Below, one piece after another: positions 9,244 through 26,916 of a DNA stretch of 64,000 nucleotides (its first letter is position 1; each line of letters begins with the position of its first letter). The notes beneath the pieces are model-generated. The model saw only the letters and a list, made by a program, of their open reading frames with translations, ran no database searches and was not told the origin of the DNA. A program made the translations under genes and the position numbers. Origin of the DNA: an uncultured archaeon (GTDB lineage Archaea > Aenigmatarchaeota > Aenigmatarchaeia > Aenigmatarchaeales > DAIDAN01); the NCBI GenBank assembly GCA_964545795.1, contig CAZJGC010000002.1:1929-65928 (forward strand), written 5' to 3'.

Positions 9244-9247
9244 TTAT

Positions 9248-10396
9248 ATGAGAGTTGCTGTTATAGGTTTGGGTATAACAAAATTCGGAGAACATTGGAA
9301 CAAAGGTTTGCGCGAACTTGCTGTTGATTCAGGAATAATGGCTATAGAAGATGCTGGAATAGAAGGAAAAGATTTGGATGCATTGTATATTGGAAACATG
9401 TCAGCAGGCAGGTTCGTAGGTCAGGAACATATAGGAGCTCTTATTGCAGACCAGATAGGCGTGGATATACCTTCAACTCATGTTGAGGCGGCATGCGCTT
9501 CTGGAGGTCTTGCACTGCGTCAGGCTGTTCTTTCTGTGATGTCGGGGCAGCATGATATTGTGCTTGCAGGCGGAGTGGAAAAAATGGTAGATGCAAGCGC
9601 AGAGAAAAGCACTGCAACTCTTATGGGGGCTGCAGATGAGGAATGGGAAGCGTTTCATGGCTTTACTTTCCCGGGAATATATGCTCTTATTGCAAGAAAG
9701 CATATGCATGATTTTGGCACAACCAGAGAACAGTTGGCGGCAGTTTCAGTAAAAAATCATAAAAATGCAATCTTAAATCCAATAGCGCAGTTTCCTTTTG
9801 AGGTTTCAACAGAAAAAGTTGTTAATTCTCCTATGGTTGCAGACCCGTTAAGGCTTCTTGATTGCTCGCCAATAACTGATGGCGCTGCTTCTGTAATAGT
9901 ATGCAGAGAAGATATTGCAAAAAAATATACTGACAATCCTGTGTATATTGTTGCATCAGCACACGCTTCAGATACTCTTGCTCTGCATGACAGACGCTCT
10001 ATCACAACTCTTGATGCAACAGTTAAAGCTGCGAAAATTGCCTATAAAATGGCTGGCATAACTGCAAAGGATATAGATGTTGCTGAAGTTCATGATTGCT
10101 TTACAATAGCCGAGCTTCTTGCAATAGAAGATTTGGGTTTTGTTGAAAAAGGCATGTCAGGAAAATTTGTTGAGGAAGGGAATACAGAGATAGGCGGAAC
10201 TATACCAATAAATACTTCAGGGGGTTTAAAAGCGTGCGGGCATCCTGTAGGCGCTACAGGAATAAAGCAGGTAATAGAGATTGCAAACCAACTTCGCGGA
10301 ACTGCAGGAAAAAGAAGCGTTGAATGCGAGTATGGACTTACGCATAATGTGGGTGGTTCAGGGGCAACTTGCATTATTCATATTTTAACAAGGTGA
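9248..10396 (+). CDS. Acetoacetyl-CoA thiolase (archaeal SCP-x type)
   Basis: Thiolase motifs VEAACASGG and GHPVGATG. Confidence 0.85.
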
Positions 10397-10400
10397 TTTA

Positions 10401-10799
10401 ATGACGCATAAGTCAAATATACCTCAGGCATGGAGAAGATTTGAAAACAGATACAGAATTGTTGGCGTTCATTGCAGCAATTGCAATACCGATTATTATC
10501 CTGTGCGATATATATGCCCTAAGTGCAGAAGAAAAGGAGATCTTGAAGAAAGGGAATTTTCTCAAAAAGGCACTATAATAACTTACTCTATAATACACAC
10601 ATCCACAAAAGATATGCAATTGCAGTTGCCTTATGTTATAGCGCTAATAAAATTGGATGATGGACCTGTAATATCAGCGCAGGTTGTTGAATGCGAAAAT
10701 CCTGAAATTGGTCAAAGAGTTCAGGGCGCATTCAGGAAAATCTGCGAAGACGGGGATACAGGAATAATACAATATGGAATAAAATTTAAACCTTTATGA
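10401..10799 (+). CDS. DUF35 OB-fold/Zn-ribbon protein; scaffold of the archaeal thiolase/HMG-CoA synthase complex
   Basis: CSNCNTDYYPVRYICPKCR zinc ribbon plus an OB fold. The conserved operon order, HMG-CoA synthase then thiolase then DUF35, supports the call. Confidence 0.75.
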   Translation: MTHKSNIPQAWRRFENRYRIVGVHCSNCNTDYYPVRYICPKCRRKGDLEEREFSQKGTIITYSIIHTSTKDMQLQLPYVIALIKLDDGPVISAQVVECENPEIGQRVQGAFRKICEDGDTGIIQYGIKFKPL

Positions 10800-11329
10800 A
10801 GGTGAATTATATTATTGAAATAATAATACATGGCAGAGGAGGGCAGGGAGTTGTTACAGCAGCAGAAGTGCTTGCAATGGCTGCTGCTTTTGAAGGCAAA
10901 AATTCTCAGGCTTTTCCTGTTTTTGGAAGCGAAAGAAGAGGAGCTCCTGTTAAGAGTTTTTGCAGAATAAATGATGGTCCAATAAGAGGTTATCAGCAAA
11001 TATATAATCCTGACATAGTTATGGTAATTGATGAAAAAATGTCGGATAACCAAGAATTGTATTCTAATATAAAACCAGGAGGGGTTGTTATCCTGAATAC
11101 AAGTAAGAAATTCCAGAGTGATAATATTATTTCAGTTGATGCTTCTGAAGTTGCTGACATAATAGGCAAACCTATTTACAATATAGCTATGTTGGGCGCC
11201 TTGATAAAAGCTACAGGAGTGTGTTCCTTTTCGTCATTAACAGAAGCAGTCAAAAACAGGTTCAACGATAAAATAGCAGAGAAGAATATTCTTGCTGCCG
11301 AAAAATGTTATAACGTGGTAAAATGTTAG
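10796..11329 (+). CDS. porG: Pyruvate:ferredoxin oxidoreductase gamma subunit
   Basis: [19 protein letters not shown] motif. Confidence 0.8.
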
Positions 11330-11541
11330 TTCCCATTTCAAAACCAGGTGAAAAAAACAATAAAACAGGAGATTGGGCTCAGTTAAGACCTGTGTTAGTT
11401 AAAGAATGCATAAAATGCGGCATATGCGAAAAATTCTGCCCTGATTCATGCATAAAGTTTGGAGTAGCTGATTATGATTATTGCAAAGGTTGCGGAATAT
11501 GTTCGCGGCAATGCCCAGTAAAAGCAATTGAAATGAAGTGA
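11323..11541 (+). CDS. porD: POR delta subunit (2x[4Fe-4S] ferredoxin)
   Basis: [12 protein letters not shown]...[12 protein letters not shown]. Confidence 0.8.
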
Positions 11542-11545
11542 TGTT

Positions 11546-12637
11546 ATGATTAAGACAGTTGAAGGTTCTATTGCTGTGGCTCATGCTGTCAGAAATTGCG
11601 AAATTGATCTGGCTGCATGTTTTCCTATAACTCCGTCCACTCATATTGCAGAGGAACTTGAAAGGCTTTATGCTAATGGAGAAATTAAGAATTACATTAC
11701 TACTGAGTCTGAATTTACTTCCATATCTGCGCTTATTGGCGCTTCTGCTGCTGGCGCGCGCGCATTCTCTGCAACTTCTTCTCAGGGGCTTGCGCTTATG
11801 CATGAAGCTTTGTTTAATGCAAGCGGCATGAGATTGCCTATGGTTCTTGCAGTAGGAAACCGTTCTCTTAGCGCTCCTCTGAATATATGGAATGACCATC
11901 AGGACAGCATATCTGAGAGGGACAATGGCTGGATACAACTTTATTGCGAAAACAATCAGGAAGCTGTTGACAATGTTATACAGGCGTTCAGAATCAGTGA
12001 AACTGCCAGAATTCCTGTAATGGTTTGCATGGACGGTTTCTTTCTTACTCATACAACTGAGCAGATTGACATTCCTGAACTTGAAAAAGTAAGAAAGTTT
12101 GCTCCTAAAGGAACATGGGATAAACTTGACCCTAACAATCCGTTAACCTTTGGTGCATATGCTTCTCCGGAGCATTATCAGATGTTCAGGGAAGATTTGC
12201 ATGAAGATTTGATGAAGTCAAAAACTGTGATAGAAGAGACAGGAAAAGAATTTGGAAAAAATTTTGGAAGAGAATATGGTCTTGTTGAAGATTACAAAAC
12301 CAAAGATTCAGAAACAATAATAATTTGCATGGGTTCAAGCGCGGCAAATGCGAAAAATGCTGTTGACGAGTCTGAATCAGTTGGGTTGCTAAGAGTAAGG
12401 TGCTACAGACCTTTTCCTTATGAGCAAATAAGAAGAATATGCGAGGATGCAAAAAAGATTATTGTTTTTGAGAAAGCCATGAGCGCGGGTTCGTTCCCTC
12501 CTTTATTTTCTGAAGTATGTTCAATGTTTCAGGGCAAAAATATAATAAGCGTGATTGGAGGTCTTGGCGGGAGGGATGTCACGGCGGAGCATTTCAAAAA
12601 AATGCTGGATTTTGAAAAGTCGGGTTTTATAAGGTGA
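11546..12637 (+). CDS. porA: POR alpha subunit
   Basis: GSIAVAHAVRNCEIDLAACFPITPST is the POR alpha N-terminal domain. Confidence 0.85.
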   Translation: MIKTVEGSIAVAHAVRNCEIDLAACFPITPSTHIAEELERLYANGEIKNYITTESEFTSISALIGASAAGARAFSATSSQGLALMHEALFNASGMRLPMVLAVGNRSLSAPLNIWNDHQDSISERDNGWIQLYCENNQEAVDNVIQAFRISETARIPVMVCMDGFFLTHTTEQIDIPELEKVRKFAPKGTWDKLDPNNPLTFGAYASPEHYQMFREDLHEDLMKSKTVIEETGKEFGKNFGREYGLVEDYKTKDSETIIICMGSSAANAKNAVDESESVGLLRVRCYRPFPYEQIRRICEDAKKIIVFEKAMSAGSFPPLFSEVCSMFQGKNIISVIGGLGGRDVTAEHFKKMLDFEKSGFIR

Positions 12638-12644
12638 AATAAAT

Positions 12645-13499
12645 ATGGAAGGTTTGATTCATGGGCACAGGGCATGCGCAGGTTGCGGATGCGCAATATG
12701 CATGAATATGATTTTAAGGACAATAGGAAAAGATGTTATAATTGTGAATGCTACTGGTTGCATGGAAATTATTTCAACTCTTTATCCTGAAACTTCGTGG
12801 GACGTGCCATATATACACAGCCTTTTTGAAAATGCGCCTGCAGTTGCTTCAGGAATTGCAAGGTATTTGCAGTCAGAGGGAAAGGAAACCAAAGTTATAT
12901 GCATAGGCGGAGACGGAGGCACTTATGATATAGGATTTGCTGCGTTGTCAGGAATGCTTGAAAGGAATGAAAATGTGCTTTATATTTGCTATGATAATGA
13001 GGCTTATATGAATACAGGCGTTCAAAGGAGTAGCGCCACTCCTCTGCATGCGGAAACTACAACATCGCAGTATGGCAACAAAGTTCATGGAAAACTGGAA
13101 TGGAAAAAGCCGATATTGGATATAGTTGCAGCCCATAAAGTTCCTTATGTAGCCAGCGCAAGCATAGCATTTCCTGAGGACCTGACAAACAAAATAAAAA
13201 AGGCATTGAATATAAAAGGCTCAAGATTTATAGACGTTCATTGTTCATGCCCGCTTGGTTGGGGGCATGACAGCAGTCTGACAATAGAGAAGTGCAGACA
13301 GGCTGTTGAATGCGGAATGTGGGTTTTGTTTGAGGTGGAAAACGGAAAAATCACGCTTAATAAAAAAGATAAAACCCTGCCTGTAAAAGATTATATTGCA
13401 GGGCAAAAAAGATTTTCCAAACTTTCTGAACAGGATATAAAAGAATTGCAGAGTATGGTTGACAAACAATGGGAAGAAATTATCAGAAGAAGTCAATAA
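12645..13499 (+). CDS. porB: POR beta subunit (TPP-binding)
   Basis: ACAGCGC...GCMEI...GGDGGTYDIG is a TPP-binding motif. Confidence 0.85.
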   Translation: MEGLIHGHRACAGCGCAICMNMILRTIGKDVIIVNATGCMEIISTLYPETSWDVPYIHSLFENAPAVASGIARYLQSEGKETKVICIGGDGGTYDIGFAALSGMLERNENVLYICYDNEAYMNTGVQRSSATPLHAETTTSQYGNKVHGKLEWKKPILDIVAAHKVPYVASASIAFPEDLTNKIKKALNIKGSRFIDVHCSCPLGWGHDSSLTIEKCRQAVECGMWVLFEVENGKITLNKKDKTLPVKDYIAGQKRFSKLSEQDIKELQSMVDKQWEEIIRRSQ

Positions 13500-13523: not shown

Positions 13524-13760
13524 TCAATGGCTTCTGAAATACTCCTCAAAACTTCTGCCTGCATTCTCATCCAGCTTCTTCAATTCCTCTACTACCATCT
13601 CACCTATTCGCCTCGTGGACATGCCGTCTTCTACCCTGCCTGCGACAGCGTCAGCCACCTGATTTGCCACATCTTCAGATGCTCCTGCTTTTTTGCAGGA
13701 TTCGCATATTTTGTTCTTGTCAAACTCCTGCGTGGAGCCGTCTTTTTTTGTTACATTCAT
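13524..13760 (-). CDS. Stand-alone ATP-cone domain protein
   Basis: MNVTKKDGSTQEFDKNKI... resembles the ATP-cone signature, VxKRDGxxExFdxxKI. Confidence 0.5.
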   Translation of the reverse strand: MNVTKKDGSTQEFDKNKICESCKKAGASEDVANQVADAVAGRVEDGMSTRRIGEMVVEELKKLDENAGRSFEEYFRSH

Positions 13761-13801: not shown

Positions 13802-14443
13802 CTATGTTTTAAAGCCGTATTTACCTTTCAATGGTACAAATGTAAAGAAGCCGGGAAATTTTTTTATTTCAAGTCCTTTTTTCAGTTTTGTTATCAAAGT
13901 CATTTTCTGGGTTTCCATATCTCCTATAGGTATCAGCAGCTTGCCGAAAGTTTTAAGTTGTTCAATAAGTTCTTTGGGAACTTCCTGCGTCGCTGCTGTT
14001 ATTATAATCTTGTCAAACGGCATGTATTTCCTTAGCCCAAGAGAACCGTCTGCATTAAATATTTTAATGTTCTTTATTTTGAGTTTCTGAATATTGTTTT
14101 TTGCAAATTCTGCAAGTTCTGGTATAATTTCTGTTGTATACACAAAACCTTTTTTTGCTATTCTGCTTAAAATTGCTGCCTGCCAGCCGCTGCCGGTTCC
14201 AATTTCAAGTATTTTATCATTTTCTTTAATATCAAGAATTTCAGTCATTAATACTACTGTAGAAGGTTGGGAAATTGTCTGCCCCCAACCTATGGGCAAA
14301 GGATTATTAATATATGCGAATTTTTTCAATTCTTCAGGCAAAAATTCATGTCTTGGCGCTTCCCTTAAGGCTTCTTCAACTCGTTCTGATTTCAGGATTC
14401 CTGATTTCTTCATATTTTCTATTAATTGCTCCAGTTCATACAT
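13802..14443 (-). CDS. pcm: Protein-L-isoaspartate O-methyltransferase
   Basis: ILEIGTGSGWQAAIL matches the SAM-binding motif of PIMT. Confidence 0.85.
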   Translation of the reverse strand: MYELEQLIENMKKSGILKSERVEEALREAPRHEFLPEELKKFAYINNPLPIGWGQTISQPSTVVLMTEILDIKENDKILEIGTGSGWQAAILSRIAKKGFVYTTEIIPELAEFAKNNIQKLKIKNIKIFNADGSLGLRKYMPFDKIIITAATQEVPKELIEQLKTFGKLLIPIGDMETQKMTLITKLKKGLEIKKFPGFFTFVPLKGKYGFKT

Positions 14444-14477
14444 AACAATATATATTAGTTAAACAGTTTAATAAACT

Positions 14478-15272
14478 ATGCAGTTAAATTTGTTAATAAG
14501 AAAAATCAAAAATATTGAAATACAGGGCGCAAAAGAAATAGCAATAGAGAGTTTGAAATTTCTTAAAACATTTGCATTAAAAAATGGTTTTGGAAAAAAA
14601 TTTGATGTTGTTTGCAAAGAACTTGAGAGCGCAAGACCTACTGCTGTGGTTCTTCATAATTGTATTGAAATAATAAAGAAGGAAAGGAGTATTGAGGCAA
14701 TAGACAAACTGCTTGAACAACTGCAAACTGACAATATATCAAAGCATGGATTAAAGGTAATCAGAAAGAAATCTGTTATAATGACTCATTGTCATTCTTC
14801 TGAGGCAATATCTCTTATAAAAAAGACAATGCCAAAAAAAGTCTTTGCAACTGAAACAGACCCGAAAGAGCAGGGAGTAAAAACGGCAAAAGAGTTGGCA
14901 AAAGAAAAAGTTTCCGTTGTTTTAATAATAGATTCTGCTTCAGGGTTTTTCATGCCTGAAGTTGATTATGTAATTGTAGGAGCCGATGCAATCAGAAAAG
15001 AAGGTGTTGTAAATAAAATTGGCACATACCCTTTAGGTGCGCTTGCAAAGGAACATAAAAAGCCGTTTTATGTTGTTGCCGATAGTTTAAAAATTGATAC
15101 ACGCAGGAATTTTGTAATAGAAGAACGGCCTGCTGAAGAGGTGCATAAAAAAATAAAGGGGGTAAAAATCAGAAACCCGGCTTTTGATATAACTCCATGG
15201 AAGTTTGTTACAGGCGTTATTATGGAAAGTGGTGTTTTTAAGCCGGTAAAAATAAAGGAGATGATAAAATGA
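14478..15272 (+). CDS. Ribose-1,5-bisphosphate isomerase (eIF-2B alpha/beta/delta family)
   Basis: eIF2B-like fold. It overlaps the rbcL start with ATGA and sits in an operon with RuBisCO and AMP phosphorylase. Confidence 0.7.
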   Translation: MQLNLLIRKIKNIEIQGAKEIAIESLKFLKTFALKNGFGKKFDVVCKELESARPTAVVLHNCIEIIKKERSIEAIDKLLEQLQTDNISKHGLKVIRKKSVIMTHCHSSEAISLIKKTMPKKVFATETDPKEQGVKTAKELAKEKVSVVLIIDSASGFFMPEVDYVIVGADAIRKEGVVNKIGTYPLGALAKEHKKPFYVVADSLKIDTRRNFVIEERPAEEVHKKIKGVKIRNPAFDITPWKFVTGVIMESGVFKPVKIKEMIK

Positions 15273-16486
15273 GATATATTGATTTTGTTGATTTGTCTTA
15301 TAAGCCTAAGAACGATTTAATATGCGATTTTTATCTGGAGGCAAAGGACATAAAAAAATCTGCGGGTGCTGTTGCTGCTGAGTCAAGTATTGGCACATGG
15401 ACAGATGTTTCTACAATAAAGAACTATGTTGAAAGAATGGCTGCAAAAGTTTTTTATATTAAAAAAACAGGAAAGGGCGCGGAAATAAAAATTGCATATC
15501 CAATAGATTTGTTTGAACAGGGAAGTATGCCGAATATTCTTTCTTCTGTAGCAGGAAATGTTTTTGGAATGAAAGAATTAAGGAATTTAAGGCTGAATGA
15601 TATTGTTTTTCCTAAGAAGTTGCTAAAAAGTTTCAAAGGACCAAAATACGGCATAACGGGAATAAGGAAAATTTTCAAAACAAAAAGGCCGTTGGTTGGC
15701 ACAATAATAAAGCCAAAATTAGGGTTAGTGACAAAAGACCATGCTAATGTGGCTTATGAGTCATGGAAAGGAGGCTGTGATATAGTAAAGGATGACGAGA
15801 ATTTAGGCAGCCAGAAGTTTAATTCATTCAGAAAAAGGTTTTTGGAAACAATAAAAATGCGGGATAAAGCAGAAAAAGAAACAGGGGAGAAAAAGATTTA
15901 CATGATAAATATAACTGCGGAAACAGAGGAAATGATTAGACGCGCTGATTTTGTTGCTAATAACGGCGGGGAATATATTATGGTTGATATAATTAGCGCA
16001 GGATGGTCTGCATTGCAGACTTTAAGAAACAAAAATTTTAATCTTGTAATGCATGCTCACAGGGCAGGGCATGCGGCATTTACGAAAAATCCAAAACACG
16101 GGATATCCATGAAAGTCGTATCTAAGATTGTAAGAATAGTTGGCTGCGACCAGCTTCATGTTGGAACCGGGGTAGGAAAAATGTATGAAACAAAAGAAGA
16201 AGTTCTTGAGAATGTTTCTGCATTAAAGGAAGAAAACGGATTAAGAACTGTAATGCCTGTTGCTTCAGGAGGTTTGCATCCGGGACATGTGCCTGCTTTG
16301 CTGAATATTTTTGGAAGTGATGTGGTAATACAGGCTGGCGGAGGAATACATGGAAATCCGTTAGGAACGCAGGCAGGCGCAACTGCTATGAGGCAGGCTG
16401 TTGATGCATGCCTTGAAGGGATTTCTTTGAAAGAATATGCTAAAAACCGCAAGGAGTTGACGGCGGCTTTGAAAAAGTGGAAATGA
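15269..16486 (+). CDS. rbcL: RuBisCO large subunit, archaeal form III
   Basis: IIKPKLGL, GGCDIVKDDENLGSQ, HAHRAGHAA and PVASGGLHPGH motifs. Confidence 0.85.
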   Translation: MRYIDFVDLSYKPKNDLICDFYLEAKDIKKSAGAVAAESSIGTWTDVSTIKNYVERMAAKVFYIKKTGKGAEIKIAYPIDLFEQGSMPNILSSVAGNVFGMKELRNLRLNDIVFPKKLLKSFKGPKYGITGIRKIFKTKRPLVGTIIKPKLGLVTKDHANVAYESWKGGCDIVKDDENLGSQKFNSFRKRFLETIKMRDKAEKETGEKKIYMINITAETEEMIRRADFVANNGGEYIMVDIISAGWSALQTLRNKNFNLVMHAHRAGHAAFTKNPKHGISMKVVSKIVRIVGCDQLHVGTGVGKMYETKEEVLENVSALKEENGLRTVMPVASGGLHPGHVPALLNIFGSDVVIQAGGGIHGNPLGTQAGATAMRQAVDACLEGISLKEYAKNRKELTAALKKWK

Positions 16487-16539
16487 AATTTGGGTTTGCA
16501 AGAAAAATCTTTTAAAGCCGCAAATTAATTAATTGATAG

Positions 16540-16896
16540 GTGGTATCTTTGAAAAACATAAAAATCTCAAAATGGGATGTTTTTGCAGTTCTTGGGTTGG
16601 CGGCATTTATAATTATTATGTCAGTTCTTGTTTATGCTCCAAAAGGCGAATGCGAGGTTGCAAGGCCCGGATACAAGTGCGCATCTGCAAAAAGTGTTAT
16701 GATAGAAAACTGCAATTACTGGGGAAAATATGCATGCAACACATCTGCAGATGTCAGCCTGCCTCAGGTGGAATGGTATATTGGAAATTTGTGCAAAATA
16801 GCAAATGAAAATCATGGGTATGGCTATGAGTGCGCAAATCTAAAACTTGCATGCAATCAGGTAACAGGAAAACAGGTTTGTCCGGTGGGAATATGA
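16540..16896 (+). CDS. Small Cys-rich secreted or membrane-anchored protein of unknown function
   Basis: N-terminal hydrophobic helix AVLGLAAFIIIMSVLVYA followed by 10 Cys. GTG start. The stop overlaps the deoA ATG (ATGA). The alternative frame 16533..16808 is rejected. Confidence 0.5.
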   Translation: MVSLKNIKISKWDVFAVLGLAAFIIIMSVLVYAPKGECEVARPGYKCASAKSVMIENCNYWGKYACNTSADVSLPQVEWYIGNLCKIANENHGYGYECANLKLACNQVTGKQVCPVGI

Positions 16897-18434
16897 AATT
16901 GTCAGCAAAGCCATTAAGTCTTGAAGTTGGAGACAAGAATGTAGTTGTTATTAACAGGAAAGACGCAGATTTTCTTGATTTGCATGCTCTTGAAAGGGTT
17001 AAATTAAAGTTTAAAGGAAATGAAATGGTTGCGATAGTAAATATAACAGACAAGTTTGTTAATGAAGGGGAAATAGCCACAAGCAATGAAATAAATTCTT
17101 TTTTTGGATTAAAAAAAGGAGATAAAATTTCTGTGTCAATAGAGAAAGAGCCTGATTCTGTTATTTTCATAAAACAAAAAATTGCAGGGCATAAGCTCAA
17201 CTATGAACAGATTGAGTCCATTGTCAGGGATGTTGTAAGCAAAAAACTTTCAGGCATAGAAATATCATCATTTTTGACAGCCCTTTATATCCGCGGCATG
17301 AGCAGAGATGAAGTTGAATATTTATCAAGAGCAATGATAAACAATGGAAAAAAACTGAATTTTGGAAATAGCGTTGTTGATAAACATTCTATAGGAGGCG
17401 TGCCCGGAGACAAAACTTCAATAGTTCTGGTTCCTGTGATTGCGTCTGCAGGGCTTATAATACCAAAGACATCTTCGCGGGCGATAACATCTGCAGCAGG
17501 AACAGCAGACAGAATGGAAGTGCTTGCAAACGTTGAGTTTGATTCTAAAGAAATAGTCAGAATTGTCAAAAAAACAAACGGTTGCCTTGTATGGGGAGGC
17601 GCGCTTGACCTTGCTCCTGCTGATGATGAATTTATAGAGGTTGAGTTTCCTCTTGGCATAGACCCGCTTTTACTGCCTTCTATAATGTCAAAGAAGAAGT
17701 CTGTTGGGGCAAAATATGTTGTTATTGACATACCTACAGGCAGCGGCGCAAAGATTAAGACGGTAGATGATGCCAAAATTTTGTCAGAGGAATTCATAGA
17801 GCTTGGCAAGAAATTTAACATGTCAGTTGTTTGCGGCATTACTGTTGGCGAGCAACCTATAGGATATAATATAGGGCCTGCTCTTGAAGCAAAAGAGGCT
17901 CTTGAAACAATAATGGGAAGAGGTCCAAAAGACCTTGTAGAGAAGGTTTCGCAACTTGGAGGCATAATATTTGAAATGACAGGAAAGGGAAATTATGATG
18001 ATGTTCTGAGAATTATAAAAACAGGAAAAGCTGAAAGGAAGTTCAGGCAAATAATTGCTGAGCAGGGAGGGAATCCGAAAATAAAACCTTCTGATATAGT
18101 TATTGGAGACAAAATCTTTGATGTTCGTTCAAGAAGGTCAGGAAAGGTGCTGCAAATAAAAAATATGGAAATAGCAAAAACCGCAAAAATGGCGGGTTCG
18201 CCTAAGGACAAAGGTGCAGGTGTGAGATTGCACAAAAAACTTGGAGATATTGTTAAGAAAGGCGAAAAATTGTTTACAATTTATGCTGAGAATACAATAA
18301 AGCTTAACAGGGCAGTGAAGTTTGCAAGAGAGTATGAACCTGTTGTGGTAGGCAGCTTGCTTAAAGGAAAAATACTTATTGACAGGTTTCCTTCTGATGT
18401 TTTGAATGCAAAAACTGTTTTTCTGGAGAGATAA
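16893..18434 (+). CDS. deoA: AMP phosphorylase (thymidine phosphorylase family)
   Basis: GGVPGDKTSIVLVPVIASAG and an N-terminal extension, as in archaeal AMPpase. The real start is probably the ATG at 16893 (MKLSAKPLSL). Confidence 0.8.
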   Translation: MKLSAKPLSLEVGDKNVVVINRKDADFLDLHALERVKLKFKGNEMVAIVNITDKFVNEGEIATSNEINSFFGLKKGDKISVSIEKEPDSVIFIKQKIAGHKLNYEQIESIVRDVVSKKLSGIEISSFLTALYIRGMSRDEVEYLSRAMINNGKKLNFGNSVVDKHSIGGVPGDKTSIVLVPVIASAGLIIPKTSSRAITSAAGTADRMEVLANVEFDSKEIVRIVKKTNGCLVWGGALDLAPADDEFIEVEFPLGIDPLLLPSIMSKKKSVGAKYVVIDIPTGSGAKIKTVDDAKILSEEFIELGKKFNMSVVCGITVGEQPIGYNIGPALEAKEALETIMGRGPKDLVEKVSQLGGIIFEMTGKGNYDDVLRIIKTGKAERKFRQIIAEQGGNPKIKPSDIVIGDKIFDVRSRRSGKVLQIKNMEIAKTAKMAGSPKDKGAGVRLHKKLGDIVKKGEKLFTIYAENTIKLNRAVKFAREYEPVVVGSLLKGKILIDRFPSDVLNAKTVFLER

Positions 18435-18473
18435 GCAAAGTTAATATATAAAACAAGACAAATAAATAAAATT

Positions 18474-19721
18474 ATGAAAACAATGTTCATAATTCTGGAC
18501 GGGGTTGCTGACAGGCCTGCTAAACTTCTGAATGGAAAAACCCCGCTTGAGTCAGCAGAAACGCCTAACCTTGACACGCTTGCTAAAGAAAGCATGCTTG
18601 GTTTAATAGATGTTATGGGCAGGACAGCGCCGGAAACTGATACGGCAGTAATGGCAATGTTTGGTTATAATCCGCTTGTTTATAATAAAGGGCGCGGACC
18701 ATTGGAGGCTGTCGGTATAGGGTATAATTTTAGGAATGAACTGGCAGTAAGATGCAATTTTGCGACAATAGCAAACGGCAAAATAATTGACACTGAAGCA
18801 GAGAGATTGGAAACCAAATATTCCAAAAAACTTGTAAAATATCTTGAAGACAATATAAGTCTTGATGTTGATTTTGAGTTAAAACATGAAATGAATTACA
18901 GGTTTCTTTTGATATTAAAGTCAAAACTTTCTGAATATGTTTCAAGCACTCATCCGGGCTATTACAGGCTAATGAAAAATCTTATAGAAGTTCCTAAGCC
19001 GTTGCATGGGAAGATGGTTTTTGAAAAGTGCAAACCTTTAAAGAGTTCTGCAAAGAAGACAGCTGATATTATAAATTCTTTTACTAAGCAGTCTGAGTTG
19101 CTGTTAAAAGAACATAAGATAAATGTTAAAAGAAGAGAAGCAGGAAAGCACGAGGCAAATATTGTCCTTACAAGAGGTGCAGGCAACTCTTTGCCCAGTA
19201 TCAGTAAAATAAAGGGAAAATGGCTGTGCTTCGCTGACACAGCAGCTGAGAAGGGCATAGCAAAACTGCTTGGCATGGAATGTCTTGATTTGCCGGAACC
19301 TTTTACAGACAGGCTTATGAAAAATGAAAGGCAGGTAAAGAACGCAGTCAGAAGAGATATGAAAGTTCGGGTTGCTCTTCTTAAAAAGAATATTGACAAA
19401 TATAGTTGCTTTTATCTTCATTTCAAAGGCGCAGACCCGTTTGGGCATAGAGGTCTGCCTGTTCTCAAAAAAGCCTATATTGAAGCAATGGACAGGTATT
19501 TTTTTGAAAAGATTGATTTTTCTGAATTCAGGGTTTGCATAACAAGCGACCATACGACTGCCTGCGAAGCAAGATCGCATACAGCAGACCCGGTGCCTGT
19601 TATGATTTCAAACATGCCGAAACAGGATAACAAGCGTTTTTCTGAGAAGAACTGCAGAAAAGGCTCTCTTGGAAAATTCAAGGCTACTGATTTGGTTAAA
19701 AGGTTTTTAATAAAAAGTTAA
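18474..19721 (+). CDS. apgM: Cofactor-independent phosphoglycerate mutase, archaeal type
   Basis: MKTMFIILDGVADRP...GKTPLESAETPNLD. Confidence 0.8.
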   Translation: MKTMFIILDGVADRPAKLLNGKTPLESAETPNLDTLAKESMLGLIDVMGRTAPETDTAVMAMFGYNPLVYNKGRGPLEAVGIGYNFRNELAVRCNFATIANGKIIDTEAERLETKYSKKLVKYLEDNISLDVDFELKHEMNYRFLLILKSKLSEYVSSTHPGYYRLMKNLIEVPKPLHGKMVFEKCKPLKSSAKKTADIINSFTKQSELLLKEHKINVKRREAGKHEANIVLTRGAGNSLPSISKIKGKWLCFADTAAEKGIAKLLGMECLDLPEPFTDRLMKNERQVKNAVRRDMKVRVALLKKNIDKYSCFYLHFKGADPFGHRGLPVLKKAYIEAMDRYFFEKIDFSEFRVCITSDHTTACEARSHTADPVPVMISNMPKQDNKRFSEKNCRKGSLGKFKATDLVKRFLIKS

Positions 19722-22611: not shown

Positions 22612-24831
22612 ATGGTTTTTGAAACTGAGATAAAGGACGGAATATTGAAAATAAATTGTCTTGGTTCAATATACGGTGCAAGCATAGAAGATTCCGACGT
22701 GCTTATGGCAAGAGTTATAGATAATTTGATTTCTGAGCCTTCTATAAGGGGTATTATTCTTGCAGAATCAAGAGAATATGAATACAACACCCAACAAACA
22801 AAGATGCTTGTAGAAATAGCAAAAGCCATAACAACAATTTTAAGGGAAAGAAGACTTATATCCATAAAAAAGTTCCCTAAGGGTTGCGACAGGCTAATAT
22901 CTGTGTGGTATGGGTGGCTGCAGAATCTTATTACAATACAGTTGCGTTCAGACCCCGTAGGAGCTTATGTGAACCTTATCAGGGAGATAAGACATACAAC
23001 CATAAAGAAGGATAGGTGCAGGGAGGAGTATCTTAAAAATATATTGCTTCCGATAAAAGAGATTCTTGAGCAATGCTCTCTTATACAGTTGGTAAAACCC
23101 CATATAAGCGGTTATAATGTAGGCAACAGGGCAGTTTATAGAGAAATCTTTCATCCTACAATTAGACCCAATTTTATGTATACAAAATACATGGCAACCC
23201 CGCCTCCAGGAGAGGCAATAGAAAGATATGAAATAGGAAATGTTGAAATAAGTATATATAAGGTTCCCGGGCATGTAAGATATTTTTATCATGTTGTGCC
23301 TCCTGAGTTCAATCTTGCTGAAGATGAATATATATTGCTGGATGGCGCGCGCAGGATTTTGGAAGAAAGGCGCCCAAGAGAGTTTGAGACAAAAGACCAG
23401 GAGAAGATGAGAGAAATATTTAACAATATTGGGATTGAACTGCTGAGAGATTTGGCTGAACAAAGCGGAAAAAACTTCACTCCTCTTCAGATAAAAAAAC
23501 TTGCATCAATACTTACAAGGTATACGGCAGGTCTTGGTATATTAGAGATAATTCTTTCTGATGAAAAAATACAGGATGTTTTTGTTAATAGTCCGCTTGG
23601 TGAAATTCCTGTATATGTTTATCATAATGATTACGGCGAGTGCGAAACCAACCTTATACCAACAAGGGTAGATGGTGAAAGATGGGCAACAAGATTCAGG
23701 CTTTTGTCTGGAAGACCATTGGATGAGGCAAATCCTGTTCTGGATACAGAAACAAATGCTCCCGGAGGCAGGGCAAGAGTGTGCGCTATTTATCCCAATC
23801 TATCTCCTGAAGGCATGGGAATTTCATTGAGAAGGCACAGGGACAGACCATGGACTCTTCCGTTGTTTATAAATGTCGGCTTCTTGGACCCTTTGTTTGC
23901 AGGTCTTATAAGTTTTGTAACTGATTATGGAAGAACCTTCCTTATAGCAGGCACGCGTTCTTCAGGAAAAACATCATTGCTTGGGGCATGCATGCTTGAA
24001 ATACTTCCAAAACAAAGAATTGTAACTGTTGAGGATACCTTGGAACTTCCTGTCAAAAAACTGCAAAGTCTTGGTTACAACATTGAAAGATTGAAATCGC
24101 GTTCTGTTATAACAAGGGTTGAAACTGAGATGAGCGCAGATGATGCTATAAGAACTGCTTTGCGTATGGGCGACTCTTCATTGATAATAGGCGAAGTAAG
24201 GTCATTGGAGGCTAAAGCTCTTTATGAAGCAATGAGAATAGGAGCTCTTGCAAATGTTGTAGCAGGCACAATACATGGAGAGTCTGCTTATGGCGTATTT
24301 GACAGAGTTGTTAATGATTTAGGTGTTCCTGCAACAAGTTTTAAGGCGACAGACCTTGTGATAATATGCAATAAGATAAGAAGCGCTGACGGTCTTAAAA
24401 CTTTCAGAAAGGTCACAGAAGTCACAGAAGTCAGAAAACACTGGAAGAATGACCCTGTTGAAGAGGGAGGTTTTGTAAACCTTATGGAATATTCTTCAAA
24501 ATTAGGCATGCTCAAGCCAACTCCAACTTTTTTGAATGGCGAGAGTTTTATGTTGAATGAAATATCAAAACGCGTAAGAGAGTGGTCAGGCAATTGGGCT
24601 GCCGTTTGGGAAAACATAAACTTGCGTGCGAGAATATACAAATCAATAGTTGATATTGCAAAATCAACAAACAAGCCTGAACTTATGGAAGCAGAGAACA
24701 CTGTAAAAAGCAATGAAAAGTTTCATTTGTTGTCTGAGAGGTCCAGAATAGAGACAGGTTTTATTGATGCCGAACTTGTTTATAAAGAGTGGCTTGAGTG
24801 GTTCAAAAAACTTGCAAAAAGTCAGAGATGA
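22612..24831 (+). CDS. Type II/IV secretion-family ATPase (archaeal FlaI/TadA/PilB-like), unusually long at 739 aa
   Basis: Walker A AGTRSSGKTS. VTVEDTLELP matches the VirB11/GspE box. RIGALANVVAGTIHGESA. Confidence 0.8.
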   Translation: MVFETEIKDGILKINCLGSIYGASIEDSDVLMARVIDNLISEPSIRGIILAESREYEYNTQQTKMLVEIAKAITTILRERRLISIKKFPKGCDRLISVWYGWLQNLITIQLRSDPVGAYVNLIREIRHTTIKKDRCREEYLKNILLPIKEILEQCSLIQLVKPHISGYNVGNRAVYREIFHPTIRPNFMYTKYMATPPPGEAIERYEIGNVEISIYKVPGHVRYFYHVVPPEFNLAEDEYILLDGARRILEERRPREFETKDQEKMREIFNNIGIELLRDLAEQSGKNFTPLQIKKLASILTRYTAGLGILEIILSDEKIQDVFVNSPLGEIPVYVYHNDYGECETNLIPTRVDGERWATRFRLLSGRPLDEANPVLDTETNAPGGRARVCAIYPNLSPEGMGISLRRHRDRPWTLPLFINVGFLDPLFAGLISFVTDYGRTFLIAGTRSSGKTSLLGACMLEILPKQRIVTVEDTLELPVKKLQSLGYNIERLKSRSVITRVETEMSADDAIRTALRMGDSSLIIGEVRSLEAKALYEAMRIGALANVVAGTIHGESAYGVFDRVVNDLGVPATSFKATDLVIICNKIRSADGLKTFRKVTEVTEVRKHWKNDPVEEGGFVNLMEYSSKLGMLKPTPTFLNGESFMLNEISKRVREWSGNWAAVWENINLRARIYKSIVDIAKSTNKPELMEAENTVKSNEKFHLLSERSRIETGFIDAELVYKEWLEWFKKLAKSQR

Positions 24832-24837
24832 AGCATT

Positions 24838-26916
24838 ATGTTTTCCAATAAGAAAAAGAAGATTGAAAAAAGAATTGAAGAAATAAGAAAAAGACAGATA
24901 AAGAAGGTTCTAAAGGAGATTGAACCTACTGTGGAACTCCCTAAAGAAGAAAAGTTTGAGCCATATTCTATTGATTATAAAAAGTTCTTGGAAGATATAA
25001 AACGAAAACCTGAAACATTTTATGAAAAAGCATGTTTATTTTCCGAGAAGTTGATAAAGGTGAAACCTGATGATTCAACATCAGCAAAACTTAAGCAAGA
25101 CATAACTGCTGCTTATATTACCGCAACACCGGAAGGGGTTATGTCCTTTTCACTTCTGTCATTTTTTGCCATGATGCTCATATCAGTTACAGGCATTTTA
25201 GGAGGCTTTATTAATGCAGGGTTTGGATTGTTTTTGATATTGCTTGGAGGAGGTATTTCATATTTTATATACACTTACCCATCCACGCATGCAAGGTCCC
25301 TGCAGGCGAAAATGAGTTCTGAGATTGTGCTTGCTATTTTATATATGGTAATTTACATGCGCAATAATCCAAACATAGAAGGGGCTGTAAAATTTGCTTC
25401 AAAGAATCTTTCAGGACCTTTGAGCTGGGATTTGAAAAAAATTATGTGGGATGTTGAACTTGGAACATATAGTTCTATAGATGAAGCCTTTTCGTTTTAT
25501 CTGACAAAATGGAAGGACAAAAATGAGGAATTTTCAGAAGCTCTGCATATATTAAAGGCAAGCACTTCAGAATCTGAATCAAGAAGAACAGCAATGCTTG
25601 ACGAAGCAATAAATGTGATACTTGAGGGAACAAAAGAAAGAATGAAACATTATGCTCAGGGTTTAAGATTGCCAGTTATGCTTATACATGCTATGGGAGT
25701 TTTGCTTCCTGTAATAGGGCTTATAATGTTTCCTATAATTGTTCTTTTCATGCAGGATGTGATAAAGCCCGTTTTTATTTTCATAGGATATGATATAGCG
25801 CTCCCTGTATTTTTATATCTGTATATGAACTATATTTTGCAGACAAAGCCTCCAACGTTTTCGCAGCCAGACACAACCAAAAGCAAAGGCATACCGCCCA
25901 TAGGAAAATTCTCATTGTTTGGGAAAAACATACCTATACTTCCTATATCGCTTATTATTGGGCTTATAATAATAAGCATAGGATTTGCAGGCATAGGCAC
26001 AGCAGATGTTGCAACTTCAGTAAACTACTCTATTATTGTAGTTATAGGAATATGCGTTTCTGTAATAGTGTATTGTTATCTTGACAGTTATCAGAAAATC
26101 AAAATAAGAAATGATATTGAGAAAATAGAGAATGAATTTTCTGAGGCGCTGTTCCAGCTTGGAAACAGCATTGCAGGAGGAACGCCCATAGAAGTTTCTG
26201 TTGACAGGGCTGTTGAAAATCTTAAAAATATGAAAATTTCCGATTTGTTTCTTATCTCAAGCATGAATATGAAAAAGCTTGGCATGACTTTTGAGCAGTC
26301 GCTGTTTGACAAGGAATACGGGGCTATTCAGCAGTATCCATCAAAACTCATACATTCAATAATGCAAACCATTATAGAATCTTCCAGAAAAAGCGTAAAA
26401 ATAGCGTCGTTGTCCATGCTTACAATATCGCATTATTTGAAAGGGATGCATAATGTCAAGGAAGAAATAAATGAAATTCTTGGTGAAACTGTAACAAGCA
26501 TGAAATTCTTGGCATTGTTTCTTGCTCCTATGATAGCCGGTGTTACTGTTAGCATGGCTGTTGTAATAATACAGATACTTACATCCATTTCTACCCAGCT
26601 TTCAACTCTTGCTTCTGCACCAGACCTTGCAGGAGGGTTGCAGGGATTAGTGTTATTTGGATGGAATCAAGGAGGAACAGGACCTCCGATAGAGCCTGCC
26701 GCCTTCCAGCTTATAGTCGGCATTTACATGCTTCAGACAGCATTGCTCTTGTCGTATTTTATAAACAGGATACAGTATGGCGAAGATGCAATAGGATTAA
26801 GAAACGTTATATGGCAGACATTGATATTTGCGGCAATAATATATGCATTGAGCTGGTTTGTAACTTATAATATGTTTGGCGGACCAATAAAGAGTTTATT
26901 GAATCCAATAACGTAA
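24838..26916 (+). CDS. FlaJ/TadC-like polytopic membrane platform protein
   Basis: 692 aa with many TM helices. Immediately downstream of the ATPase, with a 6-nt gap. Confidence 0.7.
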   Translation: MFSNKKKKIEKRIEEIRKRQIKKVLKEIEPTVELPKEEKFEPYSIDYKKFLEDIKRKPETFYEKACLFSEKLIKVKPDDSTSAKLKQDITAAYITATPEGVMSFSLLSFFAMMLISVTGILGGFINAGFGLFLILLGGGISYFIYTYPSTHARSLQAKMSSEIVLAILYMVIYMRNNPNIEGAVKFASKNLSGPLSWDLKKIMWDVELGTYSSIDEAFSFYLTKWKDKNEEFSEALHILKASTSESESRRTAMLDEAINVILEGTKERMKHYAQGLRLPVMLIHAMGVLLPVIGLIMFPIIVLFMQDVIKPVFIFIGYDIALPVFLYLYMNYILQTKPPTFSQPDTTKSKGIPPIGKFSLFGKNIPILPISLIIGLIIISIGFAGIGTADVATSVNYSIIVVIGICVSVIVYCYLDSYQKIKIRNDIEKIENEFSEALFQLGNSIAGGTPIEVSVDRAVENLKNMKISDLFLISSMNMKKLGMTFEQSLFDKEYGAIQQYPSKLIHSIMQTIIESSRKSVKIASLSMLTISHYLKGMHNVKEEINEILGETVTSMKFLALFLAPMIAGVTVSMAVVIIQILTSISTQLSTLASAPDLAGGLQGLVLFGWNQGGTGPPIEPAAFQLIVGIYMLQTALLLSYFINRIQYGEDAIGLRNVIWQTLIFAAIIYALSWFVTYNMFGGPIKSLLNPIT

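What the first reader, a model, noticed from the sequence alone, without database searches (positions are those of the whole stretch)
14478..19721. Compact AMP-salvage/RuBisCO operon extended by phosphoglycerate mutase
The gene order is R15P isomerase, RuBisCO-III, a small Cys-rich ORF, AMP phosphorylase, then apgM. Start and stop codons overlap: e2b2/rbcL overlap with ATGA, and the ORF at 16540 overlaps deoA with ATGA. This would encode the full route AMP to R15P to RuBP to 3-PGA to 2-PGA in one transcription unit. That fits nucleotide or nucleoside salvage as a carbon and energy source in a reduced-genome archaeon.
Basis: partly seen in the sequence, partly recalled or inferred. Interest (0 to 1): 0.5.

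Follow-up and report, generated by a model that had tools for sequence, protein, structure and literature searches.

The report
Archaeal RuBisCO nucleotide-salvage operon, unknown membrane protein
This is the already-known archaeal gene cluster that breaks down AMP through RuBisCO into a glycolysis intermediate, here in a small-genome (DPANN-type) archaeon. Its one new feature is a highly conserved, uncharacterised cysteine-rich membrane protein wedged between the enzyme genes.

Summary
Five + strand genes lie at 14478-19721: a compact R15P-isomerase homologue, form III RuBisCO, a 115-aa Cys-rich protein, AMP phosphorylase and an apgM-type mutase. Both ATGA overlaps are real. RuBisCO keeps every catalytic residue and passes the type III model, so it is not a RuBisCO-like protein. 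AMP phosphorylase also passes its model. The isomerase is below its cut-off but keeps the catalytic Cys and Asp.

The apgM has Thr at the Ser-nucleophile position. Thr-type homologues sit directly upstream of enolase elsewhere, so a phosphoglycerate mutase role is likely.

The claim of one transcription unit is only partly supported. rbcL, the Cys gene and deoA have Shine-Dalgarno sites or overlaps. apgM has none, and it has a TATA-like box placed like the one before e2b2, so it probably has its own promoter.

Clustering of the three AMP-pathway genes is published. The Cys-rich protein is not. It is a narrow family with 8 invariant Cys, one TM helix and no Pfam or fold match. It lies between rbcL and deoA in most of 80 related metagenome loci and is as conserved as the enzymes. 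Its function is unknown. The apgM linkage is conserved in 30 of 31 testable loci.

The parts
14447..14457 (+). TATA-like box AATATATATTA in the 34-nt divergent spacer between PCMT (-) and e2b2 (+). It ends 20 nt before the e2b2 ATG, and there is no Shine-Dalgarno site. Putative promoter of a leaderless operon transcript.
   Evidence: Sequence. The same layout is seen at other unit-leading genes of the window. Inferred, not shown.
14478..15272 (+). Compact ribose-1,5-bisphosphate isomerase homologue (e2b2 / eIF2B-related), 264 aa.
   Evidence: PF01008 E=1.8e-59. Best NCBIfam hit is TIGR00511 at 187.5 bits, below the 314.1 cut-off. Best PDB hits are the T. kodakarensis and P. horikoshii R15P isomerases, with the THCHS Cys and GAD Asp conserved. 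Found upstream of rbcL in 31 of 31 testable related loci.
15269..16486 (+). Form III (III-b type) RuBisCO large subunit, 405 aa. GGAG Shine-Dalgarno at 15257-15260. The ATG overlaps the e2b2 stop (ATGA, 15269-15272).
   Evidence: TIGR03326 540.5 bits against a 497.45 cut-off. PF02788 plus PF00016. Best PDB hit is 2cwx at 440.7 bits; form II/III 5mac scores 265.4. Catalytic residues E38, T43, W44, N97, K148, K150, K174, D176, E177, H264, R265, H268, H297, K304, S333, G334, G335, G357 and G358 are invariant across 30 homologues. A homologue at 71% identity is named 'Form III-b' by its source.
16549..16896 (+). Conserved Cys-rich membrane-anchored protein of unknown function, 115 aa. TTG start, GGTGG Shine-Dalgarno at 16539-16543, stop overlapping the deoA start. 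It has an N-terminal TM helix (residues ~8-29) and an ~85-aa domain with 8 invariant Cys that is predicted to be extracytoplasmic.
   Evidence: Called as 115 aa in public assemblies. 134 homologue clusters at 51-76% identity, none with Pfam domains. Only 19 clusters among 1.84 billion representatives. AF2 pLDDT 91. No PDB or BFVD fold match. rbcL lies upstream in 51 of 63 loci and deoA downstream in 53 of 60. Fusions P0250 and P0253.
16893..18434 (+). AMP phosphorylase (deoA), 513 aa. GGTGGG Shine-Dalgarno at 16884-16889 and an ATGA overlap with the Cys gene.
   Evidence: TIGR03327 606.6 bits against a 535 cut-off. Best PDB hit is 4ga5 at 439 bits, covering query residues 15-486 and so most of the N-terminal domain.
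18441..18453 (+). TATA-like box TTAATATATAAAA in the 39-nt deoA-apgM spacer. It ends 20 nt before the apgM ATG, and there is no Shine-Dalgarno site. Putative separate promoter for apgM.
   Evidence: Sequence. Comparison with other genes of the window. Inferred.
18474..19721 (+). apgM-type cofactor-independent phosphoglycerate mutase homologue, 415 aa, with Thr55 at the position of the Ser nucleophile.
   Evidence: TIGR00306 322.7 bits against a 320 cut-off; equivalog NF003104 296 bits against 489. Best PDB hit is 2zkt. The PETD motif is conserved in most of the ~40 closest homologues (37 of 124 aligned sequences overall). Thr-type homologues P0301 and P0295 lie directly upstream of enolase. 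Only 30% identical to the apgM-like gene at the same position in the sister clade.

Best explanation
The locus is the archaeal AMP (pentose-bisphosphate) salvage module of a DPANN-type archaeon, probably an Aenigmatarchaeota relative.

The proposed route has four steps:
1. AMP phosphorylase splits AMP, and probably other NMPs, with phosphate into the base and ribose-1,5-bisphosphate.
2. The compact e2b2 homologue isomerises that to ribulose-1,5-bisphosphate.
3. The form III-b RuBisCO adds CO2 and water to give two 3-phosphoglycerate.
4. The adjacent Thr-type apgM most likely converts 3-PGA to 2-PGA, feeding lower glycolysis.

The pyruvate:ferredoxin oxidoreductase and mevalonate genes encoded just upstream could use the products.

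e2b2, rbcL, the Cys-rich gene and deoA form one translationally coupled operon driven from the TATA-like box at 14447-14457. apgM lies immediately downstream but probably has its own leaderless promoter; read-through is possible.

The 115-aa Cys-rich protein is a real co-expressed component. It is anchored in the membrane with a disulfide-rich domain outside the cell. Its role is unknown. My best guess is an accessory of nucleotide or nucleic-acid acquisition at the cell surface.

Shown here: gene presence, order and overlaps; family membership; catalytic residues; conservation of the gene order. Inferred: enzyme activities, transcript structure, topology and role of the Cys protein.
For: - Gene structure and overlaps.
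- Family scores.
- RuBisCO catalytic residues: aligned to 2cwx and invariant in 30 homologues.
- R15P isomerase: catalytic Cys and Asp present, and the best solved relatives are R15P isomerases.
- AMP phosphorylase: matched over query residues 15-486 to 4ga5.
- Thr-type apgM homologues are operonic with enolase, next to GAPDH and PGK or to FBPase.
- The five-gene order is conserved in about 31 sufficiently long metagenome loci. Per-junction counts are 51/63, 53/60, 30/31 and 31/31. It is also conserved in the GTDB MAGs L068 and L079 and in L162 and L163.
- Shine-Dalgarno sites occur at rbcL, cys and deoA. A TATA-like box without a Shine-Dalgarno site occurs at e2b2 and apgM.
- The Cys family is as conserved as the enzymes, at 48-67% against 47-62%.
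- The pathway and its clustering in DPANN and CPR organisms are documented in PMC6389311, PMC5113843 and PMC8407114.
Against: - No expression or biochemical data exist for this organism.
- The e2b2 homologue is far below the equivalog cut-off (187.5 against 314.1) and is about 60 residues shorter than the characterised enzymes.
- apgM has Thr instead of the canonical Ser, fails all equivalog cut-offs, and PGAP names its closest relative only 'alkaline phosphatase family protein'.
- Enolase and pyruvate kinase or PPDK are not in the 64-kb window, so the continuation of the route is not shown.
- The promoter inference rests on an A/T-rich motif in an A/T-rich genome (about 35% GC).
- The Cys gene persists in related loci that have lost rbcL and deoA (L147, L144, L121). 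Its link to the pathway may therefore be positional rather than functional.
Confidence: 0.75

Rival explanations
1. All five genes, apgM included, form a single obligatory transcription unit that encodes AMP to 2-PGA.
For: All five genes are on the same strand and the spacer is only 39 nt. No convincing terminator lies between deoA and apgM. An apgM-like gene follows deoA in 30 of 31 related loci, in 11 of them with a gap of 69 nt or less.
Against: apgM has no Shine-Dalgarno site, unlike rbcL, cys and deoA. It has a TATA-like box at the same distance as e2b2 and other unit-leading genes. In the closest relatives an Ogg-type DNA glycosylase gene separates deoA from apgM. In the sister clade another small gene often intervenes. 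The apgM at this position is a different paralogue in the two clades, at 30% identity.
Confidence: 0.3
2. The Cys-rich gene is functionally unrelated to the pathway. Its position reflects inherited local synteny in one DPANN lineage whose genomes are full of small membrane proteins.
For: The family is narrow, with 19 representative clusters. The flanking genes FEN1, ATP-cone and PCMT are also syntenic across the same loci. The Cys gene stays in place in loci lacking rbcL and deoA (L147, L144, L121). RuBisCO operons of Bathyarchaeia lack it.
Against: It is translationally coupled to deoA by the ATGA overlap and has its own Shine-Dalgarno site. It is as conserved as the enzymes at enzyme divergences of 50-60% identity. 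Relatives interleave further small membrane or Cys-rich genes at other junctions of the same operon. A different secreted Cys-rich ORF occupies the same junction in another Aenigmatarchaeota MAG (L022). A fusion joins it to one of the other operon-embedded small proteins (P0250).
Confidence: 0.35
3. The apgM-like protein is not a phosphoglycerate mutase. It would be another alkaline-phosphatase-superfamily phosphomutase, for example one acting on pentose phosphates and feeding ribose phosphates into the pathway.
For: Thr55 replaces the Ser nucleophile. To my knowledge a Thr nucleophile is used by bacterial phosphopentomutase and by NPPs. All equivalog cut-offs fail. The family includes non-PGM members such as PhpG and the proposed homoserine kinase.
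Against: Thr-type homologues are directly upstream of enolase and beside GAPDH and PGK or FBPase, the classic context for PGM. The best PDB match is the P. horikoshii apgM entry 2zkt. The N-terminal Asp and the D-H motifs I take, from my own knowledge of the superfamily, to be metal ligands are conserved in that alignment. The Ser-to-Thr change is conservative and is fixed across the clade.
Confidence: 0.12
4. The 'RuBisCO' is a RuBisCO-like protein that works with an MtnA-type isomerase in methionine salvage.
For: The e2b2 homologue also hits MtnA models, and it passes only the eIF-2B_rel subfamily cut-off.
Against: All carboxylase active-site residues are present and invariant. TIGR03326 is passed, while the MtnW models score 208-245 bits against cut-offs of 409-514. 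AMP phosphorylase is in the same operon.
Confidence: 0.02

Closest known systems
AMP / pentose-bisphosphate pathway of Thermococcus kodakarensis: AMP phosphorylase TK0353, R15P isomerase TK0185, form III RuBisCO TK2290 (Sato 2007 and Aono 2015, as cited in PMC6389311).
   Same: It has the same three enzyme families. The best solved relatives of each window protein are the Thermococcales enzymes. The same chemistry, AMP to two 3-PGA, is expected.
   Different: To my knowledge the three genes are dispersed in T. kodakarensis, whereas here they form one overlapping operon. The isomerase is about 60 residues shorter. A membrane protein gene is embedded in the operon, and an apgM follows it.
Co-located deoA-RuBisCO-e2b2 clusters in CPR bacteria and DPANN archaea (Jaffe et al. 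2019, PMC6389311; Wrighton et al. 2016, PMC5113843).
   Same: RuBisCO sits between the other two genes on one fragment, in a reduced-genome organism. The reported DPANN forms include III-b.
   Different: Where I searched them, neither paper mentions a conserved small Cys-rich membrane protein between rbcL and deoA, nor a conserved downstream apgM. The fusions reported there are RuBisCO-isomerase fusions, not seen here.
Archaeal cofactor-independent phosphoglycerate mutase (apgM, TIGR00306; solved as 2zkt, 3kd8 and 3idd).
   Same: Same two Pfam domains, full-length alignment and conserved metal-ligand motifs.
   Different: Thr replaces the Ser nucleophile in a DPANN subclade. Scores fall below the equivalog cut-offs.
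Bathyarchaeia form III-b RuBisCO loci.
   Same: RuBisCO is 64-68% identical, and deoA and e2b2 are adjacent.
   Different: The arrangement is divergent: deoA(-), rbcL(+), e2b2(-). No Cys-rich gene and no apgM are found within 10 kb.

Membership tests
Bona fide RuBisCO, form III (versus RuBisCO-like protein) | Large-subunit N-terminal and catalytic domains, scoring above the curated type III model cut-off. | tested here: met
   PF02788 E=2.9e-38 and PF00016 E=4.5e-88. TIGR03326 540.5 bits against 497.45.
Bona fide RuBisCO, form III (versus RuBisCO-like protein) | Catalytic and substrate-binding residues in spinach numbering: E60, T65, W66, N123, K175, K177, K201, D203, E204, H294, R295, H298, H327, K334, S379, G380, G381, G403, G404. 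| tested here: met
   The window residues are E38, T43, W44, N97, K148, K150, K174, D176, E177, H264, R265, H268, H297, K304, S333, G334, G335, G357 and G358. All are present, aligned to 2cwx and invariant in 30 homologues. The mapping to spinach numbers goes through the conserved motifs and rests on my own knowledge.
Form III-b rather than II/III | Closest to Thermococcales-type enzymes, and lacking the extra insertion of form II/III enzymes. | tested here: met
   2cwx scores 440.7 bits and 1geh 358.2, against 265.4 for 5mac (the M. burtonii II/III enzyme). The protein is 405 aa. A 71%-identical homologue is labelled 'Form III-b'. No formal tree was built.
Bona fide RuBisCO | Carboxylase activity. 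| not testable with these tools
   Needs an enzyme assay or complementation.
AMP phosphorylase (TIGR03327) | Score above the equivalog cut-off, and the N-terminal extra domain that ordinary thymidine phosphorylases lack. | tested here: met
   606.6 bits against 535. The alignment to 4ga5 covers query residues 15-486, while pyrimidine nucleoside phosphorylases align only from residue ~92.
Ribose-1,5-bisphosphate isomerase (TIGR00511) | Score above the equivalog cut-off. | tested here: not met
   187.5 bits against 314.1. Only the eIF-2B_rel subfamily cut-off is reached, at 186.4 against 185.85. Relatives in the same operon also fail (239.9).
Ribose-1,5-bisphosphate isomerase | Catalytic Cys (Tk Cys133) and Asp (Tk Asp202); numbering from my own knowledge of the Tk-R15Pi structure papers. 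| tested here: met
   VIMTHCHS and VGADAI align with vimthchs and vmgadsi of 3a11. R15P isomerases rank ahead of MtnA and eIF2B chains.
Archaeal cofactor-independent phosphoglycerate mutase (apgM) | Score above the curated cut-offs. | tested here: inconclusive
   The TIGR00306 subfamily cut-off is just met, at 322.7 against 320. The equivalog NF003104 scores 296 against 489 and is not met.
Archaeal cofactor-independent phosphoglycerate mutase (apgM) | Ser nucleophile in the G/E-S-D motif. | tested here: not met
   Thr55 (PETD) aligns with the Ser of GSDT in 2zkt and 3kd8. Thr is fixed in most of the ~40 closest homologues, 37 of 124 aligned sequences overall.
Archaeal cofactor-independent phosphoglycerate mutase (apgM) | Glycolytic gene context in homologues (supporting, not defining). 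| tested here: met
   Thr-type P0301 lies in GAPDH(-), PGK(-) | apgM, enolase. Thr-type P0295 lies in FBPase(-) | apgM, enolase.
Single operon (one transcription unit) for all five genes | No internal promoter or terminator, and co-transcription. | tested here: inconclusive
   Shine-Dalgarno sites and overlaps link e2b2, rbcL, cys and deoA. A TATA-like box without a Shine-Dalgarno site precedes apgM. T-runs are uninformative. RNA data are needed.
Any known protein family, for the Cys-rich protein | A significant sequence or fold match. | tested here: not met

The most novel reading that the evidence does not exclude
The Cys-rich membrane-anchored protein may form a previously unrecognised cell-surface module. 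In relatives it would act together with the two small multi-TM proteins and the second Cys-rich protein interleaved in the same operon. The module would capture or import host-derived nucleotides or nucleic-acid fragments and feed them directly into the RuBisCO salvage pathway. Uptake and catabolism of nucleotides in episymbiotic DPANN archaea would then be encoded as one unit.
Probability: 0.12. Interest if true: 0.75.

Novelty: new variant of a known kind. Interest (0 to 1): 0.4.

Why it matters
The AMP/RuBisCO salvage route is thought to let ultra-small symbiotic archaea and CPR bacteria live on nucleotides scavenged from hosts. How those nucleotides reach the enzymes is not known.

A small extracytoplasmic protein family is as conserved as the enzymes and is translationally coupled to AMP phosphorylase. 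That makes it a concrete, testable candidate for a missing accessory function. Even if it is not one, it is a new conserved protein family tied to a well-known pathway.

The conserved apgM linkage, and the Thr-for-Ser nucleophile in a DPANN apgM subclade that sits next to enolase, refine the annotation of lower glycolysis in these organisms. PGAP currently names such a protein only 'alkaline phosphatase family protein'.

The core claim, an AMP-salvage RuBisCO operon in a reduced archaeon, is correct but already known.

Tried and rejected
- **Bacterial promoter and terminator scan.** Counts equalled the shuffled expectation, and the scan is irrelevant for an archaeon. I replaced it with an in-window comparison of Shine-Dalgarno sites and A/T boxes.
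- **Oligo-T terminator scan.** T5 runs are frequent inside genes: 22 were observed against about 7 expected from composition. The scan is not discriminating.
- **tRNA and Rfam scans of the window.** Nothing was found. An apparent 1-kb gene-free, GC-rich gap at 8201-9248 was an artefact of my ORF picker. It holds a 377-aa ORF (8110-9243) that I read as HMG-CoA synthase from its sequence and position; no family search was run on it.
- **Exact look-ups for the source organism's name.** The AMP phosphorylase with the start I chose was not found by exact match.
- **GTDB scan.** It did not contain the window's own genome. The best hit was 68% identical, and most hits were Bathyarchaeia with a different gene arrangement.
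- **RuBisCO-like protein / methionine salvage reading.** Rejected on the active-site residues.
- **Cys domain as a cytosolic metal or Fe-S binder.** Considered less likely. There are no CxxC motifs, positive residues lie on the N-terminal side of the TM helix, and a fusion places the domain behind a signal or lipobox sequence. It is not excluded.


Full report
**1. The observation**

The ORF list and direct reads of the junctions confirm five co-directional genes on the + strand:

| Gene | Coordinates | Length |
|---|---|---|
| eIF2B-related (e2b2) homologue | 14478-15272 | 264 aa |
| RuBisCO large subunit | 15269-16486 | 405 aa |
| small Cys-rich ORF | to 16896 | 115 aa |
| AMP phosphorylase (deoA) | 16893-18434 | 513 aa |
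| apgM-type mutase | 18474-19721 | 415 aa |

The two ATGA start/stop overlaps, at 15269-15272 and 16893-16896, are real.

A GGTGG Shine-Dalgarno (SD) sequence at 16539-16543 is followed 5 nt later by TTG 16549. That gives the 115-aa product that public gene calls also use.

Four-base overlaps occur at about 8 of roughly 60 junctions in this window. They show ordinary translational coupling rather than anything exceptional.

**2. Identity of the enzymes**

*RuBisCO.*
- It passes NCBI's type III equivalog model: TIGR03326, 540.5 bits against a 497.45 cut-off.
- Its best solved relatives are 2cwx (440.7 bits) and 1geh (358.2 bits). To my knowledge these are the Pyrococcus horikoshii and Thermococcus kodakarensis form III-b enzymes. 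The form II/III enzyme 5mac scores only 265.4 bits.
- The nearest database relatives are 73% identical or less. They include one labelled 'Form III-b' and MAGs named Aenigmatarchaeota, Micrarchaeota, Pacearchaeota and Bathyarchaeota.
The rest of the active site is also present: E38, T43, W44, N97, H264, R265, H268, H297, K304, S333-G335, G357-G358.
- All of these residues are invariant in an alignment of 30 homologues.

*AMP phosphorylase.* It passes its equivalog model, TIGR03327, at 606.6 bits against 535. It aligns over query residues 15-486 to 4ga5, to my knowledge the T. kodakarensis AMP phosphorylase. That includes most of the N-terminal domain, which nucleoside phosphorylases lack.

*The isomerase.* This is the weakest assignment by score: TIGR00511 gives 187.5 bits against a 314.1 cut-off. 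The protein is compact, about 60 residues shorter than the Thermococcales enzymes. However:
- the characterised R15P isomerases (3a11, 5yfj) are its best solved relatives, ahead of MtnA and eIF2B subunits;
- the catalytic Cys (THCHS) and Asp (GAD) are conserved;
- it sits upstream of rbcL in 31 of 31 testable related loci.

**3. The apgM**

The protein only just reaches the apgM subfamily cut-off (322.7 against 320) and fails the equivalog models.

Alignment to solved archaeal apgM entries shows Thr55 where they have the Ser I take to be the phosphorylated nucleophile: PETD against GSDT. This Thr is fixed in most of the ~40 closest homologues (37 of 124 aligned sequences). More distant relatives have Ser.

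Two Thr-type homologues give strong contextual support for a phosphoglycerate mutase role:
- P0301, in a Micrarchaeota MAG, lies directly upstream of enolase and beside GAPDH and PGK.
- P0295 lies directly upstream of enolase and beside FBPase.

The apgM-like gene at the same position in the sister clade is only 30% identical and keeps Ser. The position is conserved, but the paralogue is not.

**4. Transcription unit**

Within the window, closely spaced genes usually have an SD-like motif (16 of 23) and rarely have an A/T run of 8 or more at -38 to -18 (3 of 23). Genes with a spacer over 25 nt usually do have such an A/T box (28 of 37).

| Gene | SD site | A/T box |
|---|---|---|
| rbcL | GGAG | none |
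| Cys gene | GGTGG | AAATTAATTA |
| deoA | GGTGGG | none |
| e2b2 | none | AATATATATTA, ends 20 nt before the ATG |
| apgM | none | TTAATATATAAAA, ends 20 nt before the ATG |

FEN1 and pelota have a similar layout, with an A/T box ending 18-19 nt before the ATG.

This is the pattern expected for archaeal TATA boxes driving leaderless mRNAs. My reading is a four-gene operon, e2b2-rbcL-cys-deoA, plus a separately promoted apgM, with read-through possible. This is inference from sequence in an A/T-rich genome. Only RNA data can decide.

**5. Conservation of the arrangement**

A GTDB scan seeded with RuBisCO shows two patterns:
- Bathyarchaeia have a different, divergent arrangement: deoA(-), rbcL(+), e2b2(-).
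- A few uncultured archaea (L065, L068, L079) share the window's order, including the Cys gene.

A metagenome scan seeded with the Cys family returned 80 loci. Among the testable ones:

| Junction | Loci |
|---|---|
| rbcL immediately upstream of the Cys gene | 51 of 63 |
| deoA downstream of the Cys gene | 53 of 60 |
| apgM-like gene after deoA | 30 of 31 |
| e2b2 upstream of rbcL | 31 of 31 |

The closest relatives are the Aenigmatarchaeota assemblies GCA_049303335.1 and GCA_053529735.1 (L162, L163). Their order is PCMT(-) | e2b2, rbcL, cys, deoA, Ogg-type glycosylase, apgM. One of them also has a CorA gene inserted.

**6. The Cys-rich protein**

This is the only new element in the locus.
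- *Family size and conservation.* There are 134 clusters at 51-76% identity, all 'hypothetical' and none with a Pfam domain. A profile search of 1.84 billion representative proteins finds just 19 clusters.
- *Architecture.* The alignment shows a variable charged N-terminal tail, one TM helix and an ~85-residue domain with eight invariant Cys. The spacings are Cx8C, Cx7C, Cx12C and Cx8C, with no CxxC.
- *Structure.* AlphaFold2 gives a confident model (pLDDT 91): the TM helix, a β-hairpin and three helices. No significant fold match exists in PDB or BFVD.
- *Selection.* Across related loci it is as conserved as the enzymes: 48-67% identity, against 47-62% for e2b2, rbcL and deoA.
- *Topology.* Positive residues precede the TM helix. 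One homologue (P0253) carries the domain behind a signal/lipobox-like N-terminus. Another (P0250) fuses it to a small multi-TM protein. An extracytoplasmic, disulfide-bonded domain is the most likely reading.
- *Relatives.* They interleave up to three further small genes into the same operon: a ~90-aa multi-TM protein between e2b2 and rbcL, a ~110-aa membrane protein after the Cys gene, and a second TM-anchored Cys-rich protein between deoA and apgM. The window has the compact version, with only the first Cys protein.
- *A parallel case.* Another Aenigmatarchaeota MAG (L022) has a different secreted Cys-rich ORF at the same rbcL-deoA junction.
- *Evidence against a strict functional tie.* Loci that lack rbcL and deoA (L147, L144, L121) keep the Cys gene next to the PCMT, ATP-cone or apgM-like genes.

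**7. Comparison with what is known**

The pathway is attributed to Sato 2007 and Aono 2015, as cited in PMC6389311. Clustering of deoA and e2b2 around RuBisCO in CPR and DPANN genomes is published (PMC6389311). Form III-b RuBisCO with the AMP pathway has been reported for Aenigmarchaeota (PMC8407114).

Those papers, and PMC5113843, do not mention an embedded Cys-rich membrane protein or a conserved apgM linkage where I searched them. A full-text search for such a description found nothing.

The finding is therefore a correct identification of a known system. It adds a lineage-specific variant: a compact overlapping operon, an embedded unknown membrane protein family, and an adjacent Thr-type apgM.

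**8. Verdict**

| Question | Verdict |
|---|---|
| Observation | confirmed |
| Interpretation | partly supported: pathway yes, PGM step likely, single transcript doubtful |
| Novelty | new variant of a known kind |
| Interest | moderate (0.4), carried almost entirely by the uncharacterised Cys-rich family and the interleaving of small membrane proteins with cytosolic salvage enzymes |

Noticed in passing
window 6999-13499 (+): One continuous + strand block. It joins mevalonate-pathway genes (HMG-CoA reductase 6999-8201, a likely HMG-CoA synthase at ~8203-9243, thiolase 9248-10396, DUF35/OB-fold partner 10401-10799) to the four subunits of pyruvate/2-oxoacid:ferredoxin oxidoreductase (10796-13499). 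Several junctions have overlaps or spacers of only 4-7 nt. This acetyl-CoA production and consumption cluster sits just upstream of the RuBisCO operon.
   Followed up: partly
window 13524-13760 (-) and 13802-14443 (-): A stand-alone 78-aa ATP-cone protein and protein-L-isoaspartate methyltransferase lie divergently upstream of the operon. This pair is syntenic with the RuBisCO operon in relatives (L162, L163; a PCMT-like gene also in L083 and L068). The 34-nt PCMT/e2b2 spacer holds a single near-palindromic TATA-like box that might serve both directions.
   Followed up: partly
L087 5429-5701, 7351-7680, 9226-9708; L068 9723-10004, 11615-11971, 13668-14087: In related operons three further small genes are interleaved with the enzymes: a multi-TM protein, a second membrane protein and a second TM-anchored Cys-rich protein. 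None has a homologue in the 64-kb window. P0250 is a natural fusion of the multi-TM protein with the Cys domain.
   Followed up: partly
L022 11221-11493: An Aenigmatarchaeota MAG has a different small secreted Cys-rich ORF (MMKNFLILLFFGIAF...CKCEEGKCVIR) at the same rbcL-deoA junction. By eye it resembles the second Cys-rich protein of the sister clade.
   Followed up: no
L147 6277-8592; L144 4560-7960; L121 6284-7883: Related loci without rbcL or deoA still keep the Cys-rich gene next to PCMT, ATP-cone or apgM-like genes. In L147 it follows a 233-aa protein that looks ComB-like by eye and precedes an apgM-like gene whose nucleophile position appears to be Cys.
   Followed up: no
L163 5093-6193; L162 8337-8969: The closest relatives carry insertions inside the cluster: a CorA Mg2+ transporter between rbcL and the Cys gene, and an Ogg-type DNA glycosylase between deoA and apgM. 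The cluster tolerates gene insertions.
   Followed up: no
window 57334-58701 (+): A single 455-aa protein carries both small-subunit and large-subunit primase domains (PF01896 plus PF04104), so it is a fused PriS-PriL primase. A GINS51 gene follows, overlapping it by 4 nt.
   Followed up: no
window 49158-56654 (+): A type III restriction-modification pair: an N6/N4 DNA methylase of 832 aa and a ResIII helicase-nuclease of 928 aa. It is preceded by a UPF0175/DUF3368 pair that looks like a toxin-antitoxin module.
   Followed up: no
window 22612-33625: A T2SSE-type secretion/archaellum ATPase (22612-24831) is followed by 7 larger ORFs, up to 692 aa, that gave no Pfam hit, plus two small ORFs that were not scanned. 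This may be a divergent pilus or cell-surface locus.
   Followed up: no
window 36975-40245: Glutamate dehydrogenase (36975-38255, -) and a hybrid-cluster (prismane) protein (38959-40245, +) are present. This is metabolic capacity beyond a minimal symbiont core.
   Followed up: no
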